A stretch of 64,000 nt of DNA, from the NCBI GenBank assembly GCA_965227295.1, contig OZ245742.1, forward strand, positions 2,784,001 through 2,848,000, read 5' to 3'. The translations under genes were made by a program, and so were the position numbers. Shown in pieces: positions 2,061-45,068 of the stretch (position 1 is the stretch's first letter; each line of letters opens with the position of its first letter). This DNA comes from Leptonemataceae bacterium (lineage in GTDB: Bacteria > Spirochaetota > Leptospiria > Leptospirales > Leptonemataceae). The notes beneath the pieces are model-generated. The model did not search any database, was not told the DNA's origin, and worked only from the letters and a program-made list of their open reading frames with translations.

Positions 2061-4802
2061 ATGTTCATTGACACGACGCGTACGGGCTCGCCCCATTCTG
2101 GCGTGACCTGTCCGTTGCCCCTGCGCGTTGCCCTTCGCATCGCCGGCATCTGCCTGCTGTTGCAGGGCGTGCTTGCCTGCGGGCCCACACCACCGGAAGC
2201 GCGGCGCGGGCACACGAATCTTTTCTCCTGGGACTACGAGCGCGACGGCCCCTATCGTCTGCGCGGTGAATGGGAGTACTATCCCGACCAGGCCCTGCGT
2301 CCCGCCGACTTCCGTGATCCCCGCGAAGACGCGGAGTACTTGCGTGCTCCCGGCGGCTGGTCGGCGTTGCTCTTGCCGCCGCGGCCGCGTCTCACTCCTC
2401 GCATGGCGACGTATCGCCTGGAGATTTTCAGTCACGAGGCGTCACGCCTGGCCGCCCTGCGCATTCCTGTCTGCGTACGCAGTTGCCGCATCTGGCTCGG
2501 GGACGAACTCATCGCCTCCCGCGGCGATCCGGAGCAGGTCGGCGGCACAACCGCCTGGAACTGGAACTATCAACGCCTTGTGCGTACCGACGCCGAGGCG
2601 CTGTCTCTGCCCGTAGTCGTACAAACGCGAGAACTCTACCCCGGTCAGGGATTGGATGCGGGGCCGTTTTATCTGGGCATTGAAGACGATTTGCGTTTGC
2701 TGGAACGCAATCGCACGGTGTTGGACGTCGGCTTAAGTGGCGCTTTGTTGATCTTAGCGGCATACTTCTTCGGCATCTATCTCTATCGGCGCAAGGATCG
2801 CGCGCCGCTGTTTTTCTCCGGTCTGGCGTTGATGCTCGCGGTACGCGGGACGGTGGCCGGGGAGCGCATCCTCAGCGGATTGTGGCCGGACCTCAATCTG
2901 CACGTGGTGCAGATGCTCGACTCCGGTTCTTTTTACGCGGCCATGTTTTTACTCGCGGCCTACGTGCGGACCCTGTTTCCCGGGCGGTTTTCCAGTCGCA
3001 CGGTGCGGGTCATGCTGATCGCGCTGATCCTCGGCCTGCTGGTGCTGCTGGTCTTTGCGCTGCCCTTCGGTGCGCTGGAAATCGGCGGAGCCGCCCTCGT
3101 CGTGTACGATGCCGTCTTCGGTTGGTTCACGGTGGCCGTCGTCGTTTTCGCAGCGTTCAAGGTCATGAGCCTTACCGGCGATCAACGCTGGGATGCATTG
3201 TGGCTCTTTCCCGGACTGGTCTTTTTTGCGTTTGCCGTCCTGTACGAGGGCCTGTTCTCCGTCGGCCTCGCAGAGATTTACGGACTCATTCCCGCGGCGT
3301 ACCTTGCCTTTATGCTTTCCCAGGCGGTCATGCTTTCCACGCGTTTTTCCGGAGAGTTCGCGCAGGTGGAGAATCTTTCGCAGCGCCTGGCGCAGACGAA
3401 CACCGAACTCAAGTCGCTGCAGGCCGGGCTGGAAGATCGCGTGCGGGAGCGCACGGCGGAATTGGAGCAGGCCCGGGAAGAGGCCGTGAAGCTGAACGAG
3501 TTCGCCCGGCGCATCAATTCCTCCGGTGACCTGGACGACATTCTGCATCACATCTTCACGTACCTGGAGTTTCACTTCGACATCGATTGCACGTTGTTGC
3601 AGTTCGTTGACTCCGAGAAAAACGAGCTCTACTATTATCGCATGTCCAGCGTGCCGGCGCACTTTACGGACGATCATCATCGCATCTTAAAAGAGACGCG
3701 CATCCCCGTGGAGCAGGGGCAGCGATTGATCGGCCGCGCGCTCTTCGACGGCCGGCGTCCGGTGTACTACAGTAAGATTCGAGCGCCCCGGGAAAAGTCG
3801 GAGCGCGATCGTTCGTTCTTTTATGAACTCGGCTTTCGTTCGTTTCTCATGGTGCCCCTGGTCATCGAAGAACGCATCATCGGACTCATTCACTTTACGA
3901 ACTTCAGTCGGGAGTTTCGTCCGGCCCGGGACGAGATTGCGCGCATTGCCCGGGTGTGCGATCAGATCGCCGGGGCCGTACGTTCGTCGCTGTTATTGAA
4001 TCGTGCGGAAGAAGAGCGCGCGAAGGCGGACCGCCTGCTCGTAAACATTCTCCCGGGCGCCGTGGCCGAGGAACTCAAAGAGAAGGGCAGTGTCGATCCG
4101 CTGCTCTACGAAAGCGTGACGATTTGTTTCACGGACTTCAAGGCGTTCACCGCCATCGCCGAAAGCATGGACCCGGACGAATTGCTGCGCGAGCTGGACG
4201 GTTGTTTTACGCAGTTTGATTTGATCACCGAACGTTACGGCATTGAACGGTTGAAGACCATCGGCGACGCCTACATGTGCGCCGGCGGATTGCCGCGCAT
4301 CAATTACACGCATCCCGTGGATGTGGTGCTCGCCGCACTGGAGATTCAGGACTTCATGACCGGCCTGCAGGCCTTGAAGGAGCAGGCCGCGCTGGAGGCC
4401 CGGGAGCGCGGTTTCGAACCGGATAGCAACGATCCGGTGTGGGAGTTGCGCCTGGGCATTCACACCGGGCCGGTGATGGCCGGTGTCATCGGCAAAAAGA
4501 AGTTCGCCTACGACGTCTGGGGAGATACGGTGAACGTCGCCTCGCGCATGGAAACCGAGGGCGTCCCCGGCCGCATCAACATCTCGGGATATACGAGTCA
4601 ACTGGTCTCACCGTTCTTCGAAACGGAACTGCGCGGCGAGGTCGCCTTGAAACATCACGGTAGCATGGATATGTACTTCGTGAATCGCCTGCGGCCGGAG
4701 TACTCCGATGACGAAGACGGGCGCCGGCCTAACGCGCACTTTCGCGAAGTTTACGAACGGAAAGTCAAAGTCGGCGCGTTGTATACCGGCGGGCTGTCAT
4801 GA
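2061..4802 (+). CDS. Membrane adenylate/guanylate cyclase (extracellular domain, 7TM-DISM-like helices, GAF, class III cyclase)
   Basis: About 7 hydrophobic segments; coiled coil LEDRVRERTAEL; GAF region; cyclase motifs FTDFKAFT, KTIGDAYM, RLGIHTG, YDVWGDTVNVASRME. Start uncertain. Confidence 0.9.
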   Translation: MFIDTTRTGSPHSGVTCPLPLRVALRIAGICLLLQGVLACGPTPPEARRGHTNLFSWDYERDGPYRLRGEWEYYPDQALRPADFRDPREDAEYLRAPGGWSALLLPPRPRLTPRMATYRLEIFSHEASRLAALRIPVCVRSCRIWLGDELIASRGDPEQVGGTTAWNWNYQRLVRTDAEALSLPVVVQTRELYPGQGLDAGPFYLGIEDDLRLLERNRTVLDVGLSGALLILAAYFFGIYLYRRKDRAPLFFSGLALMLAVRGTVAGERILSGLWPDLNLHVVQMLDSGSFYAAMFLLAAYVRTLFPGRFSSRTVRVMLIALILGLLVLLVFALPFGALEIGGAALVVYDAVFGWFTVAVVVFAAFKVMSLTGDQRWDALWLFPGLVFFAFAVLYEGLFSVGLAEIYGLIPAAYLAFMLSQAVMLSTRFSGEFAQVENLSQRLAQTNTELKSLQAGLEDRVRERTAELEQAREEAVKLNEFARRINSSGDLDDILHHIFTYLEFHFDIDCTLLQFVDSEKNELYYYRMSSVPAHFTDDHHRILKETRIPVEQGQRLIGRALFDGRRPVYYSKIRAPREKSERDRSFFYELGFRSFLMVPLVIEERIIGLIHFTNFSREFRPARDEIARIARVCDQIAGAVRSSLLLNRAEEERAKADRLLVNILPGAVAEELKEKGSVDPLLYESVTICFTDFKAFTAIAESMDPDELLRELDGCFTQFDLITERYGIERLKTIGDAYMCAGGLPRINYTHPVDVVLAALEIQDFMTGLQALKEQAALEARERGFEPDSNDPVWELRLGIHTGPVMAGVIGKKKFAYDVWGDTVNVASRMETEGVPGRINISGYTSQLVSPFFETELRGEVALKHHGSMDMYFVNRLRPEYSDDEDGRRPNAHFREVYERKVKVGALYTGGLS

Positions 4803-42800: not shown

Positions 42801-45068
42801 TTAAAGCTTTCCCTGCTTCTTGAGGAGGTGGTAGTGGAGGTAGTTCTGAATGGGCCTGTTGTCAAAGGTCGTGGTGGGTTCCCCATCCAGGTATTGGTTC
42901 GCCCATTTTTGATTTTTGTTTAAATCAAGTCGCCTTGCCCGTTCTTCCAGCATCAGGTTGTGGTGTTCACGCTGCATTCCCGATATGTCGGATGCGGTTA
43001 GTCTTACCTCTGTGGGCGGGGTCTTCTGCTCCTCCGGCTCTGCCATCGTATTTCCTCCCACGCGCCTCTCGCGGAGATGGGGGTCTTCATTGTGGTACGC
43101 TTCGCCGTGCTGATCCGAATTTGATTCCTCCATCGACATTTGCTGAGCGTTAGCGGTGTTTCCCATGGGAGTTTCGCGCAGATCGGCCTGCGCAGGATTC
43201 AAGTATTGCTGCTGATGTTGTGGGGATCCCTGGTCTTGATTCGCGTAGAGATTCGGAAAGTTGTTCTGAGCCATCGGACGTATATAGAACTGGAATTGTG
43301 ACTGTGATGGACTCTGAGAATCGAAGCTGTTGCTTCGCGAGGATCTGGCGCTACTTTTAAGCGAAAGGGTGGGTGTGGCCTTTTGCGAGGAAGCCCGATC
43401 ACTATTCGCGCCGCCGGCTGGATCGTCATAGTCGGCCTTCACTTCTTCGTCATCATCCTGCGCCTGGCCCCCCTGGTTTTGGGGCTGCATTTGCTGGAGC
43501 TGTTGCGCTTGATTTTGCTGTGGTGGCCCACCCAACTGATTGGTGGGGGGGGGCTGGACTCGCGGCGGCTCCGTTCCTTTGAACTCATCGGACATGTAAT
43601 TCGTGAACAGCGTGTCCAGTTGCTGACCGGCCGTCAAATTCGGAATCGGTGCGTACTTTACGGCAGTTCCTTGCGTAGGATTTCCCTTCAAGGGGTCGCC
43701 GTTAAAACCGATTGCCTGGCTATTCGGGTCGATGATCTGCGGCCGGCTTCCATTTTGTGCCGGCTTCGTAGATTGCTTGTAGAGATAACGATAGGCTCCC
43801 AATTGTTTGACGCGATCATTACCGCTTTCGGTGCCTTTGGTTTTGTCCAGCATCGTTTTGGTATCGCGATAGAAAGCTGCTTGTGGATTATCGGCGTCGT
43901 ACGCCGATCGCTTCGTGTCTTTATTGGCGGAGTCTCTGTCTGTCTTTCTGTTCTTGCCGCCGTACGTCGGGCTAATATTCTCGTGGTATTTTTCCGGGAT
44001 TTCAATTGCCAGCGAGTTCTTATATACGTCATGCGACTGCTTTTGATCGGCCTCAGGTATTTTCTCATGAATGTATCGAGACTTAGCTGATGGGATATGG
44101 TCATGCTCCATGGCATCTTTTTTGCCCTGCACAGCCTGAAGCTCAGTATACGTGCCAACGTCAAATTTCCGAACCGGGTTCACCGGATCACCATTTTGAT
44201 CTTTGTCAGTTCTACTCCAATCATTCCTGCTTATATCCAGCCAGTCTGCTTGAGCGGGCGCATCTTCCGTCTGTAGAACTCTGTTCTGGTCAAGATACTT
44301 ATGCACCCACTTATTATTTTCGAGCACGTAACTCTTTCCGGTATTCTTATCCTTCCACTTGTCGCGCCCCTTTCGTTTCCCCGCATTCTTCCATGTGACG
44401 AACTTATCATCATCCATCCACTTCCATTCATTGTCACCGGGCTGCGGCGCATTTGCCGTCCCTTTCGTATGCACCTTCCCGTTCTCCAACTTATACCACA
44501 GCGGCTGAATCACATCGCCGCCGCTTGAGCCGCCCGTGCTCCTCGCCGCATTTCCTGAACTCCGTGGCGGCCGGCCGCCGGCGCTCCACCGATCCGCCTC
44601 GCGTTCCAGGGCGGGGTCGTCGTTGATCGGCGCGCCGCGCTTCGGCTGCGGTTTCACCCGGCCCAGGCGTTGTTGCACGACGTGCGCCAGTTCGTGGCCG
44701 AGTTCTTCCTGGCCGGTAGAGCCGGCGGGATCGAATGCGCCTCTGCGAAAATGAATGTCGTTCCCGCGGGCAAAGGCGTGGGCGCCGAGTTGTTCGGCCC
44801 GGCCATCCTCGTGGATGCGAACGTCGCCGAGGTCGTGCCCGAGCTTCTGTTCAAAGTGCTCACGCGCGGGCGCGGGTAACGCCCGGCCGGAGCCGGGTGT
44901 CGCCCTGGACACGCCAGGCGCGCTTTGCTGTTCGTAAATTTCCCGGGCCAGTTGCACGCGCGCGTCGTTGCTCAGCCGGCGCAGGCGATCCGCCGCGGGC
45001 GATACTCCAGGAATCGGCGCGGAGTTCGGGGCGGCGCGTTTGGTGGAAGGATGATGGTGATGCAGCAT
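42801..45068 (-). CDS. Orphan DUF4157 effector 4 with DHIPS-type putative nuclease and Gln/Ser-rich tail
   Basis: [37 protein letters not shown]; then HDHIPS...[16 protein letters not shown]. Confidence 0.87.

What the first reader, a model, noticed from the sequence alone, without database searches (positions are those of the whole stretch)
4797..45068. Near-complete eCIS with a eukaryote-directed DUF4157 arsenal in a Leptospiraceae-like spirochaete
Seen: the core Afp/PVC-type structural genes and five DUF4157 genes lie on the same contig as a Leptospiraceae-type 16S and histone; no capsid, terminase or T6SS membrane genes. Known: DUF4157 is an eCIS-associated effector domain, and the characterised eCIS I know of come from Proteobacteria, Bacteroidota, Cyanobacteria and Actinobacteria. 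Inference: a spirochaetal injection system, probably aimed at protists or other eukaryotes. I know of no characterised example but cannot verify novelty.
Basis: partly seen in the sequence, partly recalled or inferred. Interest (0 to 1): 0.9.

Follow-up and report, generated by a model that had tools for sequence, protein, structure and literature searches.

The report
Contractile injection system in a Leptospirales spirochaete
An uncultured relative of Leptospira carries a complete phage-tail-like injection machine with several toxin-type cargo genes, one of them a DNase; this adds a new host lineage to a widespread, already known kind of system, and nothing shows that it is aimed at eukaryotes.

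Summary
Window 7.4-34.4 kb encodes all eight core components of an Afp/PVC-type contractile injection system (CIS), plus a PAAR-like protein, a Tail_P2_I adaptor and a fibre. There are four intact PF13699 (DUF4157, now "eCIS_core") genes and a fifth short copy cut by an in-frame stop. No capsid, terminase or T6SS membrane genes were found in the 64 kb.

The host is a spirochaete at order level. The 16S is 94.3% identical to a Leptospirales MAG. A 44-nt 16S signature occurs in 21 loci of 185,579 species genomes, 20 of them labelled Spirochaetota. A chimera is unlikely: the contig is 5.94 Mb, composition is uniform, a radical-SAM gene that sits beside the 16S in five relatives lies left of the cluster, and a Leptospira-type histone lies to the right.

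The "eukaryote-directed" reading is unsupported. The one cargo I could assign is a TseN-family DNase module whose relatives also ride on CDI and Rhs systems. The nearest solved relatives (Streptomyces and haloarchaeal CIS) are not extracellular, so release is inferred.

CIS loci in Spirochaetota (class Spirochaetia) are already catalogued; I found none for Leptospirales. Verdict: new member of a known kind, on a divergent sheath branch. Interest is moderate.

The parts
324..1760 (+). Radical-SAM/BATS gene; left anchor of the insert
   Evidence: Pfam Radical_SAM plus BATS. Orthologues (53-61% identity) lie 0.8-8.1 kb upstream of the 16S, on the same strand, in L007, L013, L014, L010 and L021.
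4797..5681 (-). GH25 muramidase with a lipoprotein-type signal peptide; last gene of the minus-strand PAAR-like operon
   Evidence: PF01183 E 1.9e-35; N-terminal hydrophobic stretch ending in Cys.
5681..7327 (-). Two Ala-rich proteins of unknown function (5681-6445 and 6470-7327)
   Evidence: No Pfam, NCBIfam or PHROGs family. Not detectably similar to each other.
7448..7831 (-). PAAR-like spike-tip protein (DUF4280)
   Evidence: PF14107 E 6.4e-27; weak IglG match.
7806..9560 (+). Methyltransf_28-like protein with C-terminal TPR; role in the system unknown
   Evidence: Below-cut-off or weak Pfam matches.
9602..10021 (-). Fifth, short PF13699 copy, interrupted by an in-frame stop at 9773-9775
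   Evidence: Own-profile hmmsearch: E 1.8e-14 and 4.7e-08 for the two pieces, with HExxH in the 3' piece. Translation and DNA.
10095..12287 (+). Afp15-like AAA+ ATPase (the ORF is open from 9954; ATG 10095 is the likely start)
   Evidence: PF00004 E 7e-32 and PF22977 winged helix E 2.5e-30. Start inferred from the overlap with the minus-strand copy.
12542..14440 (+). Cargo 1: NTD, PF13699, then a conserved ~430-aa C-terminal module of unknown fold
   Evidence: PF13699 E 1.3e-19. Nine relatives of the C-terminal module at 32-56% identity. AF2 pLDDT 81.5. No PDB or BFVD fold match.
14458..16299 (+). Cargo 2: NTD, PF13699, then a C-terminal region distantly related to that of cargo 1
   Evidence: PF13699 E 1e-21. 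A 31-residue C-terminal match to cargo 1, E 0.002. 21% identity in alignment A2.
16333..16959 (+). Afp16/Pvc16-like tail terminator
   Evidence: PF14065 E 1.9e-29.
16961..17971 (+). Cargo 3: NTD, PF13699 and a short tail; the head is duplicated from cargo 2
   Evidence: PF13699 E 4e-20. About 77% nucleotide identity to cargo 2 over roughly 550 nt of the 5' part (D1, D3, D6).
18326..20020 (+). Sheath (Afp2-4 homologue)
   Evidence: PF17482/PF04984. PDB best matches: Streptomyces CIS 8bl4/8bky E about 1e-60, haloarchaeal 9ezm 1.5e-52, Pvc2 2.5e-43.
20077..20514 (+). Inner tube protein 1
   Evidence: PF06841 E 1.3e-44; TIGR02241.
20565..20852 (+). Tail-assembly-chaperone-like small protein
   Evidence: phrog_508 E 3.1e-07.
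21044..21475 (+). Inner tube protein 2 (CIS5-like adaptor)
   Evidence: PF06841 E 2.3e-42; NF053770 E 5.6e-30, below its cut-off.
21485..23782 (+). 765-aa protein without a family, in the tape-measure position
   Evidence: No family in Pfam, NCBIfam or PHROGs. Role inferred from gene order only.
23787..24428 (+). Afp7-like baseplate/tube initiator
   Evidence: PF19266 CIS_tube E 1.9e-27.
24397..25668 (+). gp27/gpD-like hub (first half of the split Afp8)
   Evidence: NF033848 VgrG_rel E 1.4e-34, N-terminal part; weak PF05954.
25670..26806 (+). gp5/gpV-like spike (second half of the split Afp8), with 48-nt repeats in its C-terminal part
   Evidence: PF04717 E 1.2e-21. VgrG_rel C-terminal part E 2e-26. 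Repeats at 26557-26740 (D2).
26831..27217 (+). gp25-like baseplate wedge (Afp9)
   Evidence: PF04965 E 1e-27.
27210..30605 (+). Baseplate J protein (Afp11-like), 1131 aa with an ~800-aa N-terminal extension
   Evidence: PF04865 E 9.7e-16; TIGR02243 E 2.5e-53. PDB best match 9gtp (Streptomyces CIS) E 3.6e-40.
30609..31697 (+). Second baseplate ORF, matching the N-terminal part of TIGR02243
   Evidence: TIGR02243 E 1.4e-28, below its cut-off; phrog_6 baseplate wedge E 8e-4.
31694..32569 (+). Tail_P2_I-type baseplate/fibre adaptor
   Evidence: PF09684 E 2.4e-07; TIGR02242 and CIS12_fam partial matches.
32590..34434 (+). Fibre-like protein (CIS13-like N-terminus with an orphan C-terminal part)
   Evidence: NF053767 E 6.5e-15 for residues 27-151, below its cut-off. 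Only one close relative (86%) among 5.8 billion cluster representatives.
37770..42614 (+). 16S (37770-39276) and 23S (39700-42614) rRNA genes, with no 5S and no spacer tRNA; right anchor of the insert. The conserved leader starts at about 37272.
   Evidence: Rfam; ARAGORN. 94.3% (16S) and 92.4% (23S) identity to L005. Leader similarity.
42801..45068 (-). Cargo R: PF13699, TseN-family DNase module (about residues 300-425, nt 43794-44171), then a ~330-aa Q/S/N/P-rich tail
   Evidence: PF13699 E 1.8e-22. 93 relatives of the module, some fused to PT-VENN, PT-HINT or RHS. AF2 pLDDT 89.2. Foldseek hit to TseN 9j9w_B: E 1.7e-4, probability 1.00. Profile versus TseN E 2.3e-18.
50099..50284 (-). HLp-like face-to-face bacterial histone; a lineage marker on the right flank
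   Evidence: PDB 9qt0 E 4.5e-18. 9QT0 is HLp of Leptospira perolatii.

Best explanation
This is a complete, chromosomally encoded contractile injection system of the Afp/PVC superfamily. Its gene organisation matches lineage II, subtype IIa or IIc. The host is an uncultured spirochaete of the Leptospirales lineage.

Where it sits. The CIS lies within a ~35.5 kb lineage-specific stretch (about 1.8-37.3 kb). That stretch separates a radical-SAM gene from the 16S-23S operon; in several relatives the two are neighbours.

How it most likely works.
- Assembly (shown by homology): a baseplate assembles around a gp27/gp5-type spike capped by a PAAR-like protein. The baseplate parts are gp25, two J-type proteins, the Afp7-like protein and Tail_P2_I. 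Tube and sheath polymerise on it and are capped by the Pvc16-like terminator.
- Cargo loading (inferred from AlgoCIS): the AAA+ ATPase loads proteins built as short NTD, PF13699 domain, variable C-terminal module into the tube lumen.
- Firing (inferred): the fibre, held by the Tail_P2_I adaptor, binds a target surface. The sheath contracts and the cargo is expelled.

Cargo. One cargo (42801-45068) carries a TseN-family DNase module. Cargo 1 carries a conserved ~430-residue module of unknown fold, and cargo 2 a distantly related C-terminal region.

Open points. Whether the particle is released (which I favour, at about 0.5-0.55) or acts while cell-associated is not resolved. The target, bacterial or eukaryotic, is unknown.
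For: Components: all eight core components of Chen 2019 are present on one strand with tight spacing.

Subtype: afp8 is split and there are two afp11-like ORFs, as described for subtypes IIa and IIc.

Host:
- The 16S is 94.3% identical to L005 (Leptospirales MAG), and the two group with 99/98 support.
- The 44-nt signature occurs in 21 loci, 20 labelled Spirochaetota and one unlabelled.
- The best non-spirochaete 16S in PLSDB is 80.8% identical.

Continuity:
- The window's own sheath, fibre and cargo 1 are listed on a contig of 5,938,550 bp.
- Tetranucleotide correlation between the left segments and the right segments up to 57.3 kb is 0.86-0.90, against 0.90-0.91 within the left flank.
- rSAM-16S synteny holds in 5 of 21 loci.
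- The 16S-23S layout without 5S is shared with 6 of 6 relatives scanned.
- An HLp-type histone lies on the right flank.

Cargo architecture and loading precedent: bioRxiv 10.64898/2026.05.27.728243 (passages). Cargos 1-3 share an NTD motif.

DNase.

Fibre and adaptor arrangement: PMC12923769 (passages).
Against: - No expression or particle data exist; everything rests on sequence.
- The closest solved homologues are non-extracellular systems.
- No holin or dedicated lysis cassette was recognised. The GH25 enzyme has its own export signal.
- The fibre's C-terminal part is an orphan, so its binding function is untested.
- The TseN link is invisible to single-sequence search.
- No immunity gene lies next to the DNase cargo. 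That is unusual for a toxin active in the producer's own cytoplasm.
- One PF13699 copy is interrupted.
- The two closest 16S relatives (L005, L020) do not show the rSAM-16S adjacency, so 'insertion' is relative to more distant relatives.
- No eCIS gene was seen in any of the 21 relatives' loci, but those cover at most 20 kb per genome.
Confidence: 0.7

Rival explanations
1. The machine is not extracellular. Like its closest characterised relatives, it fires from inside the producer. It would be either free in the cytoplasm, causing regulated cell death (Streptomyces CIS), or docked to the inner membrane as a contact-dependent, T6SS-like weapon (haloarchaeal CIS).
For: - The best PDB matches of the sheath (E about 1e-60 and 1.5e-52) and of baseplate J (3.6e-40) are exactly these two systems; PVC, Afp and the others score lower.
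- Tail_P2_I and eBAP3-type fibres are reported to resemble TssG and TssK (PMC12923769).
- The haloarchaeal paper suggests Cis12/Cis13 may serve as membrane contacts.
- No lysis cassette was recognised.
Against: - No multi-pass membrane protein or CisA-like transmembrane adaptor lies in or next to the cluster.
- A fibre-like gene with an adaptor is present; the Streptomyces paper uses the absence of such a gene as an argument for the cytoplasmic mode.
- No immunity genes lie beside the cargo genes, whereas kin-contact weapons normally need them.
- Sequence distance to both reference systems is large (about 35-40% identity class).
Confidence: 0.3
2. One reading: the system is specifically aimed at protists or other eukaryotes, and the DUF4157 genes are a eukaryote-directed arsenal.
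For: - Characterised subtype-I eCIS (Afp, PVC, MAC) act on eukaryotes (Geller 2021 abstract).
- No immunity genes accompany the cargo genes.
- TseN, the structural relative of one cargo module, also kills fungi.
Against: - PF13699 is a general CIS marker found in 13 phyla and linked to antibacterial toxins (Geller 2021).
- DUF4157 proteins are anti-archaeal toxins in Halogeometricum.
- Relatives of the DNase module ride on CDI (PT-VENN, 4 of 65 aligned sequences) and Rhs systems.
- The fibre has no recognisable eukaryote-type binding domain.
Confidence: 0.2
3. Assembly artefact: the CIS-bearing flank and the rRNA or right flank come from different organisms and were joined at the rRNA repeat.
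For: rRNA operons are classic misassembly points. No reads were available to me.
Against: - The contig is 5.94 Mb long.
- The tetranucleotide signature is uniform across the operon.
- The rSAM gene left of the cluster is the 16S neighbour in five related spirochaete MAGs.
- An HLp-type histone and a further PF13699 cargo gene lie on the right.
- The rRNA leader and the operon layout match the relatives.
Confidence: 0.03
4. Phage tail remnant or R-type tailocin rather than a cargo-injecting CIS.
For: Sheath, tube, baseplate, chaperone-like and tape-measure-position genes are phage-tail-like.
Against: - It has the AAA+ ATPase with winged helix, the Pvc16 terminator, baseplate J and five PF13699 genes, which together distinguish eCIS from tailocins and T6SS (Chen 2019; Geller 2021).
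- There is no capsid, terminase, integrase or lysis module in the 64 kb.
Confidence: 0.03

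Closest known systems
Streptomyces coelicolor CIS (CIS-Sc, subtype IId; PDB 8BKY, 8BL4, 9GTP, 9GTS)
   Same: Best solved match for the sheath (E about 1e-60) and for baseplate J (E 3.6e-40). It is a lineage II system.
   Different: - CIS-Sc has a single afp8 and a single afp11 per Chen 2019.
- It lacks typical tail fibres and uses a membrane protein downstream of the baseplate genes.
- It works in the cytoplasm of a Gram-positive host.
- The window has a split afp8, two afp11-like ORFs, a fibre with a Tail_P2_I adaptor, and no transmembrane adaptor.
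Halogeometricum borinquense CIS ('archaeal T6SS', clade IIa; PDB 9EZM)
   Same: - Second-best sheath match (E 1.5e-52).
- That paper names Cis8a and Cis11a components, which suggests the same split organisation.
- DUF4157 proteins inside and outside the cluster are its secreted cargo, as proposed here, including one cargo gene outside the main operon.
   Different: - The host is archaeal and the cluster is plasmid-borne.
- It is docked to the cytoplasmic membrane.
- Its toxic DUF4157 proteins have downstream immunity partners. No such partners are evident here.
AlgoCIS of Algoriphagus machipongonensis
   Same: Cargo architecture of NTD, DUF4157 and variable CTD, with loading into the tube lumen by the AAA+ ATPase. 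It is an extracellular system with fibres.
   Different: Much weaker sequence similarity: sheath E 2e-29 to 7adz, which I recall to be AlgoCIS but did not check. The host is in Bacteroidota and the baseplate composition differs.
TseN, T6SS DNase effector of Acidovorax citrulli (PDB 9J9W chain B)
   Same: - The cargo R module shares the fold (Foldseek probability 1.00, TM 0.63 on the target, 141 columns).
- It shares the profile (E 2.3e-18), a DH.PS motif, and the invariant His at the position of catalytic H254.
   Different: - 21% identity; undetectable by single-sequence search.
- It is delivered here by a PF13699 head rather than by VgrG/PAAR/chaperone.
- No TsiN-like immunity gene is adjacent.
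- It is followed by a long low-complexity tail.
Catalogued CIS loci of Spirochaetota (PMC12923769, supplementary file 2)
   Same: Same phylum. The rows shown are eBAP3-type fibres, the type that uses a Tail_P2_I adaptor.
   Different: - The two genomes I could name are class Spirochaetia isolates: Alkalispirochaeta alkalica DSM 8900 and Spirochaeta cellobiosiphila DSM 17781.
- No 'Leptospir*' entry occurs in the held files.
- I could not fetch their sequences to compare.

Membership tests
eCIS / Afp-PVC superfamily (core backbone of Chen 2019) | Afp1/5 tube protein | tested here: met
   Two PF06841 genes, E 1e-44 and 2e-42; TIGR02241 above its cut-off.
eCIS / Afp-PVC superfamily (core backbone of Chen 2019) | Afp2/3/4 sheath | tested here: met
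   PF17482 above its cut-off; PDB CIS sheaths E 1e-60 to 1e-25.
eCIS / Afp-PVC superfamily (core backbone of Chen 2019) | Afp7, Afp8 and Afp9 baseplate/spike set | tested here: met
   PF19266, PF04717 with VgrG_rel (two ORFs), and PF04965.
eCIS / Afp-PVC superfamily (core backbone of Chen 2019) | Afp11 baseplate J (absent from classical T6SS) | tested here: met
   PF04865 E 1e-15; TIGR02243 181.6 bits against a cut-off of 155.8.
eCIS / Afp-PVC superfamily (core backbone of Chen 2019) | Afp15 AAA+ ATPase and Afp16 terminator | tested here: met
   PF00004 with PF22977; PF14065.
eCIS / Afp-PVC superfamily (core backbone of Chen 2019) | No T6SS membrane complex and no phage head or packaging genes | tested here: met
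   None among the 66 ORFs scanned across the 64 kb. The other ~5.9 Mb of the genome were not seen.
eCIS / Afp-PVC superfamily (core backbone of Chen 2019) | Particles released from the cell and acting extracellularly | not testable with these tools
   Needs microscopy or proteomics. The nearest solved relatives are not extracellular.
Lineage II, subtype IIa/IIc (Chen 2019) | afp8 split into gp27-like and gp5-like ORFs | tested here: met
   24397-25668 and 25670-26806 match the N- and C-terminal parts of VgrG_rel respectively. Criterion.
Lineage II, subtype IIa/IIc (Chen 2019) | Two afp11 copies | tested here: inconclusive
   Two adjacent ORFs hit TIGR02243. They match different parts of the model (C-terminal part and N-terminal part), and the second is below its cut-off.
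Lineage II, subtype IIa/IIc (Chen 2019) | Placement on the Afp11 or sheath tree with dbeCIS reference loci | not tested
My sheath tree holds only unnamed or sparsely named database hits.
PF13699 (DUF4157 / eCIS_core) cargo proteins | PF13699 domain with the HExxH motif | tested here: met
   Four genes above the cut-off. HExxH is present in all five copies.
PF13699 (DUF4157 / eCIS_core) cargo proteins | Architecture of NTD, DUF4157 and variable CTD | tested here: met
   Alignment A1. The heads of cargos 2 and 3 are duplicated with different tails. Precedent.
PF13699 (DUF4157 / eCIS_core) cargo proteins | Physical loading into the particle | not testable with these tools
   Needs mass spectrometry of purified particles.
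TseN-family DNase toxin domain | Shared fold with the TseN C-terminal domain | tested here: met
   Model pLDDT 89.2. 9j9w_B is the only PDB match at E <= 0.001, with probability 1.00.
TseN-family DNase toxin domain | Sequence-profile relationship and conserved catalytic His | tested here: met
   Profile E 2.3e-18. The invariant His of the family (H362 of the protein) aligns with the Ala of the H254A crystal form. Single-sequence search was negative.
TseN-family DNase toxin domain | DNase activity | not testable with these tools
   Needs a biochemical assay.
Effector-immunity pair (T6SS/CDI style) | Cognate immunity gene immediately downstream of the toxin gene | tested here: not met
   Only 186 nt with no credible ORF lie between the gene's end and the 23S. 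Cargos 1-3 are followed directly by other CIS genes.
Order Leptospirales (Spirochaetota) | 16S affiliation | tested here: met
   - 94.3% identity to a Leptospirales-labelled MAG, and a clade with 99/98 support.
- The 44-nt signature occurs only in 21 loci, 20 Spirochaetota-labelled and one unlabelled.
- Limit: the tree holds only genomes sharing the signature and no type strains, so the family is unresolved.
HLp-type face-to-face bacterial histone | Sequence match to solved HLp | tested here: met
   E 4.5e-18 over residues 3-61; 36 of 59 identical by my count of the printed alignment. The entry was identified.

The most novel reading that the evidence does not exclude
The locus, with its single 68% sheath relative, represents a deep and so far unsampled CIS branch confined to uncultured Leptospirales. 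In this reading it operates in a way adapted to the spirochaete envelope. For example, it could be a cell-associated, T6SS-like or periplasm-spanning device that uses the Tail_P2_I/fibre pair as an anchor. It would deliver a cargo module with a new fold alongside a TseN-type DNase.
Probability: 0.12. Interest if true: 0.65.

Novelty: new member of a known kind. Interest (0 to 1): 0.35.

Why it matters
- It extends contractile injection systems to the Leptospirales lineage. Surveys found none there: my reading of the genus rows in Geller 2021 supplementary file 12 is 0 eCIS for Leptospira (439 genomes), Turneriella (3) and Leptonema (2).
- It supplies a divergent sheath lineage for comparative work.
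- It links a recently defined DNase effector class (TseN) to PF13699-type CIS cargo, alongside CDI and Rhs delivery of the same module.
- It flags a conserved ~430-residue cargo module that folds confidently but matches no solved structure.
- It does not open a new mechanism or settle an outstanding question, and the organism is uncultured.

Tried and rejected
- The 16S against PLSDB plasmids gave no close relative; the best was 80.8%.
- Protein Atlas: nothing usable for the cargo 1 C-terminus, and only a weak 0.75 lead for cargo R.
- Pfam at E <= 10 on seven C-terminal subregions of the cargos found nothing meaningful.
- PHROGs on 20 unassigned proteins gave three tail-related hits, and none for the cargos or the fibre.
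- I suspected from the conserved HH...N...H pattern that the cargo 1 module is an HNH/EndoVII-type nuclease. The confident model matched nothing in PDB (best E 0.49) or BFVD (best E 0.66), so this stays unsupported.
- Single-sequence PDB search with the DNase region gave no hit.
- Flanking direct repeats or att-like sites around the insert: none convincing, and no integrase.
- Promoter and terminator scan of 7-21.5 kb was at chance level: 3 against 5.2 expected, and 23 against 16.6 +/- 4.2.
- tblastn of 44 window proteins against the 21 relatives' loci: only the rSAM gene, plus weak cyclase and epimerase domain matches; no CIS gene.
- Fibre homologues were too few (3 besides the window's own) for a useful alignment, so the fibre was not folded.

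Not checked:
The contigs and taxa of the 68% sheath relative, the 86% fibre relative and the 56% cargo relative stay unchecked, as do the rest of the genomes of L005, L020 and L021.
- Supplements of bioRxiv preprints were closed. Some supplementary files of Geller 2021 are cut in storage.

Full report
**1. What is in the window**

The 64 kb has about 60% G+C, falling to 0.49-0.51 after 58 kb. Rfam finds a 16S (37770-39276) and a 23S (39700-42614) on the plus strand and no 5S. ARAGORN finds no tRNA.

Pfam and NCBIfam scans identify a plus-strand array from about 10.1 to 34.4 kb with tight or overlapping gene junctions. In order it holds:
- an AAA+ ATPase with an N-terminal winged-helix domain
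- two PF13699 genes
- a Pvc16_N terminator
- a third PF13699 gene
- the sheath
- a gp19-type tube
- a small tail-assembly-chaperone-like ORF (phrog_508)
- a second tube protein
- a 765-aa protein with no family
- a CIS_tube (Afp7-like) protein
- a gp27/gpD-like hub and a gp5/gpV spike, as separate ORFs
- gp25
- a 1131-aa baseplate-J protein, followed by a 362-aa ORF that matches the N-terminal part of the same NCBIfam model
- a Tail_P2_I protein
- a 614-aa protein whose N-terminus matches CIS13_fam

Upstream on the minus strand lies a second small operon. It holds a PAAR-like DUF4280 protein, two Ala-rich proteins without family, and a GH25 muramidase that begins with a lipoprotein-type signal.

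These cover all eight components that Chen et al. [quoted passage not shown] None of the 66 ORFs scanned across the window hit capsid, terminase, portal or TssJ/L/M families.

**2. The PF13699 (DUF4157) genes**

Four genes score above the Pfam cut-off: 12542-14440, 14458-16299, 16961-17971, and, beyond the rRNA operon on the minus strand, 42801-45068.

A profile made from these four and run over all 924 stop-to-stop frames of at least 40 codons found a fifth copy on the minus strand. It falls in two consecutive frames of the same phase (E 1.8e-14 and 4.7e-08). It starts at the ATG at 10021, carries an in-frame stop at 9773-9775, has the HExxH motif in the downstream piece, and ends near 9602. 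It is therefore a short, interrupted copy.

Its position also implies that the ATPase starts at the in-frame ATG at 10095, not at the TTG at 9954.

**3. Whose genome is it**

It returned 21 loci. By NCBI rank, 20 are Spirochaetota: 15 in Leptospirales, 5 labelled Spirochaetia or below. One is labelled only 'bacterium'.

Full-length 16S identity to the window:
- 94.3% to L005, a Leptospirales MAG on a 6.44 Mb contig
- 93.9% to L020
- 91.8% to L021
- 89-90% to a group labelled variously Leptospiraceae, Leptonemataceae or Spirochaetaceae
- 82-89% to the rest

23S identity is 92.4% to L005 and 91.5% to L020. In a maximum-likelihood 16S tree the window joins L005 and L020 with 99/98 support. By contrast, the best 16S among 704 matching plasmid or chromid records of other phyla is 80.8%.

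By the commonly used thresholds (recalled, not from a call: genus about 94.5%, family about 86.5%), the organism is a new genus-level lineage within Leptospirales.

Limits: the tree holds only genomes that share the signature and contains no type strains. Submitter labels are inconsistent at family level. 'Leptospiraceae-like' should therefore be read as 'Leptospirales'. The window's own contig was not among the hits.

**4. Is the contig chimeric?**

Several independent lines say no.
- The window's own sheath, fibre and cargo 1 are recorded on a contig of 5,938,550 bp.
- Tetranucleotide profiles of the three left segments correlate at 0.86-0.90 with the two right segments up to 57.3 kb. That matches the 0.90-0.91 seen within the left flank. 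The low-GC restriction-modification stretch at 57.3-64 kb correlates at 0.81-0.89.
- The left-hand radical-SAM/BATS gene (324-1760) has orthologues of 53-61% identity with the same domain pair. They sit on the same strand upstream of the 16S in L007, L014 and L013 (gaps of about 0.8-1.05 kb), in L010 (2.7 kb) and in L021 (8.1 kb). The CIS is thus bracketed by two spirochaete-lineage markers.
- Six of six relatives scanned have the same linked 16S-23S without a 5S within 10 kb. The rRNA leader is conserved back to about 37272 in L005 and L020.
- The right flank encodes a 61-aa protein matching HLp, the Leptospira perolatii face-to-face histone (PDB 9QT0), at E 4.5e-18. It also holds a further PF13699 gene.

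Reads were not available, so direct continuity remains unchecked.

**5. The cluster as an insert**

The rSAM gene and the 16S are 36.0 kb apart in the window. Similarity to the relatives ends near 1620 on the left and resumes at about 37272 on the right. In L021 the corresponding 8 kb holds ordinary metabolic genes: SASA esterase, GH1 and a lipid A acyltransferase. This interval is therefore variable.

The stretch has no integrase, no tRNA and no convincing flanking repeats. Its composition matches the genome. It is not a recognisable recent mobile element.

The two closest relatives (L005, L020) have different genes upstream of their 16S and no rSAM within 9 kb. The 'insertion' is therefore inferred relative to more distant relatives. 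None of the 21 loci (at most 20 kb each) holds a CIS gene. The rest of those genomes could not be searched.

**6. Which kind of CIS**

Chen 2019 states two criteria. Subtypes IIa, IIb and IIc split afp8 into gp27-like and gp5-like ORFs. Subtypes IIa and IIc have two afp11 copies. The window shows both features, with the reservation that its two afp11-like ORFs match different parts of one model.

Against solved structures, the sheath matches in this order:
- Streptomyces coelicolor CIS (8bl4, 8bky): E about 1e-60
- the haloarchaeal CIS (9ezm): 1.5e-52
- Pvc2: 2.5e-43
- Afp3: 1.7e-39
- the Anabaena protein All3325: 1.6e-33
- 7adz: 2e-29

Baseplate J matches the Streptomyces Cis11 (9gtp) best, at 3.6e-40. 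The entries were identified through the papers that cite them.

In the 5.8-billion-cluster protein database the sheath has one relative at 68% identity, on a 43 kb contig. Every other listed hit is at 44% or less, and full-length ones at 38% or less. In a FastTree of the 120 listed proteins the window and that relative form a pair (support 100). Their path length is 0.51, against at least 2.51 to anything else. The named neighbours are a mix of archaea, Bacillota, Acidobacteriota and Desulfobacterota, and none is a spirochaete.

The machine is thus an ordinary lineage-II CIS in content but sits on a long, sparsely sampled branch.

**7. Cargo**

*Shared head.* Copies 1-3 share an N-terminal motif upstream of the PF13699 domain. 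Copies 2 and 3 share about 77% nucleotide identity over their first ~550 nt and then diverge completely. That is a duplicated head with exchanged tails.

This matches the architecture reported for AlgoCIS cargos: a disordered NTD, DUF4157 and a variable CTD. There the NTD and the AAA+ ATPase load the protein into the tube lumen, and DUF4157 itself is dispensable for loading (bioRxiv 10.64898/2026.05.27.728243, passages).

*Cargo 1.* Its C-terminal ~430 residues have nine relatives at 32-56% identity. Five of the nine carry PF13699; one of the four that do not is from a Leptolyngbyaceae cyanobacterium. The alignment shows 25 invariant columns, most of them polar or charged residues. AlphaFold2 with this 11-row alignment gives pLDDT 81.5 and pTM 0.76. 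Foldseek finds nothing at E <= 0.001 in PDB or BFVD. It is a conserved module of unknown fold and function.

*Cargo R (42801-45068).* Residues 230-470 have 93 relatives among 1.84 billion representatives. I aligned the best 64 of them. Pfam found the following delivery modules among the 65 aligned sequences:
- eCIS_core on 9
- PT-VENN on 4
- PT-HINT on 2
- filamentous-haemagglutinin repeats on 1
- RHS or YD-shell modules on 1 each

That is the signature of a polymorphic-toxin module shared between CIS, CDI and Rhs systems.

The fold (pLDDT 89.2, pTM 0.81) has a single significant PDB match, 9j9w chain B: E 1.7e-4, probability 1.00, TM 0.63 on the target. A profile of the alignment matches the same chain, named TseN, at E 2.3e-18.

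9J9W is the C-terminal DNase domain of the Acidovorax citrulli T6SS effector TseN (H254A) bound to its immunity protein. [quoted passage not shown]

The family's only invariant residue, H362 of the window protein, aligns with the alanine of the H254A crystal form. The DH.PS motif is shared. The window sequence alone finds nothing in PDB, so the assignment rests on profile and fold.

A ~330-residue Q/S/N/P-rich tail follows the module. No ORF for an immunity protein fits in the 186 nt before the 23S.

**8. How it probably works, and what is open**

Homology supports the assembly of spike, baseplate, tube, sheath and cap. Analogy with AlgoCIS supports loading by the ATPase.

For the step from producer to target there are two readings.

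In favour of release:
- a fibre-like gene directly downstream of a Tail_P2_I adaptor, the arrangement that PMC12923769 assigns to eBAP3/5 fibres
- the absence of any multi-pass membrane or CisA-like adaptor
- the absence of immunity genes

In favour of a cell-associated mode:
- the nearest characterised relatives are the cytoplasmic Streptomyces system and the membrane-docked haloarchaeal system
- the reported likeness of Tail_P2_I and eBAP3 fibres to TssG and TssK
- no lysis cassette was recognised

I put release at roughly 0.5-0.55.

The target is not indicated by anything in the sequence. A DNase is target-agnostic and the fibre's distal part is an orphan.

**9. Novelty**

The main texts of four surveys contain no mention of spirochaetes:
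- Chen 2019
- Geller 2021
- the 2025 MAG survey PMC12210884 (its two held supplements also contain none)
- the 2026 fibre catalogue PMC12923769

A full-text search for 'contractile injection system' with 'spirochaet*' found nine papers. I looked into two of them (PMC8163846 and a 2026 preprint) and neither reports such a locus.

In Geller 2021's supplementary file 12, the genus rows for Leptospira (439 genomes), Turneriella (3), Leptonema (2) and Spirochaeta (6) show zeros after the genome count. I read those as no eCIS, judging by column position.

However, supplementary file 2 of PMC12923769 has 11 occurrences of 'Spirochaetota' among its fibre rows. The two rows displayed are eBAP3. Their IMG genome numbers correspond to Alkalispirochaeta alkalica DSM 8900 and Spirochaeta cellobiosiphila DSM 17781 in Geller's genome table. 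'Leptospir*' does not occur in those held files.

CIS loci are therefore already catalogued in the phylum but not, as far as I could see, in Leptospirales, and none is characterised. Given how widely and horizontally these systems are spread (14 bacterial phyla; Geller 2021), a specialist would not be very surprised.

**10. Verdict**

It is a new member of a known kind, with three points of modest added interest:
- a long sheath branch with a single known relative
- a TseN-type DNase delivered on a PF13699 head
- a conserved cargo module of unknown fold

Noticed in passing
window 57365-63893 (-): Low-GC (0.49-0.51) defence-like stretch. It holds a Type III restriction-modification pair: Mod at 60602-62482 (PADLOC MTase_III E 3e-107) and Res at 57365-60598, which carries a C-terminal Peptidase_S24 domain. 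A UvrD_C/PD-(D/E)XK helicase-nuclease runs off the window end. The S24 fusion on a Res subunit is unusual.
   Followed up: partly
L021 13096-13352; L009 about 12955-13654: The 23S of relative L021 carries a group I intron (Rfam RF00028, 71 bits). The 23S alignments of L021 and L009 both break at window 23S position 1949/1950, with about 330 nt and 700 nt of extra sequence respectively. The window's 23S has no such insert.
   Followed up: partly
window 37770-42800; L005, L020, L021, L007, L014, L010: The rRNA operon is 16S-23S with a ~420-nt spacer lacking tRNA genes and no 5S within reach. The same holds in all six relatives scanned. I recall that Leptospira itself has unlinked rRNA genes, so this lineage differs.
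   Followed up: partly
window 50099-50284 (-): A 61-aa HLp-type face-to-face histone, 36 of 59 aligned residues identical to the Leptospira perolatii protein. It lies next to a cupin gene and an NAD-dependent epimerase gene, not next to the SMC, MAP and DUF350 genes described as its neighbours in Leptospira.
   Followed up: partly
window 2061-4802 (+): A 913-aa 7TMR-DISM / GAF / adenylate-guanylate cyclase at the left edge of the insert. L005 also has a cyclase (DAHL type) near its rRNA operon.
   Followed up: no
window 44735-47252 (+): A DUF4910/DUF2172 aminopeptidase-like protein with a winged helix, followed by an Antibiotic_NAT (aminoglycoside 3-N-acetyltransferase family) gene. The 5' end of the first ORF as listed overlaps the cargo R gene by about 330 nt, so its true start is probably further downstream.
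   Followed up: no
window 26557-26740 (+): Three 48-nt tandem units (70-73% identical) inside the C-terminal part of the spike gene, probably beta-helix repeats of the needle (D2).
   Followed up: no
window 1796-2056 (+): An 86-aa ORF matching only the first 39 positions of the 115-position GFA (glutathione-dependent formaldehyde-activating) profile. It may be a truncated gene at the left border of the insert.
   Followed up: no
window 7806-9560 (+): A Methyltransf_28-like domain fused to TPR repeats, wedged between the PAAR-like operon and the ATPase. I know of no role for such a protein in a CIS.
   Followed up: no
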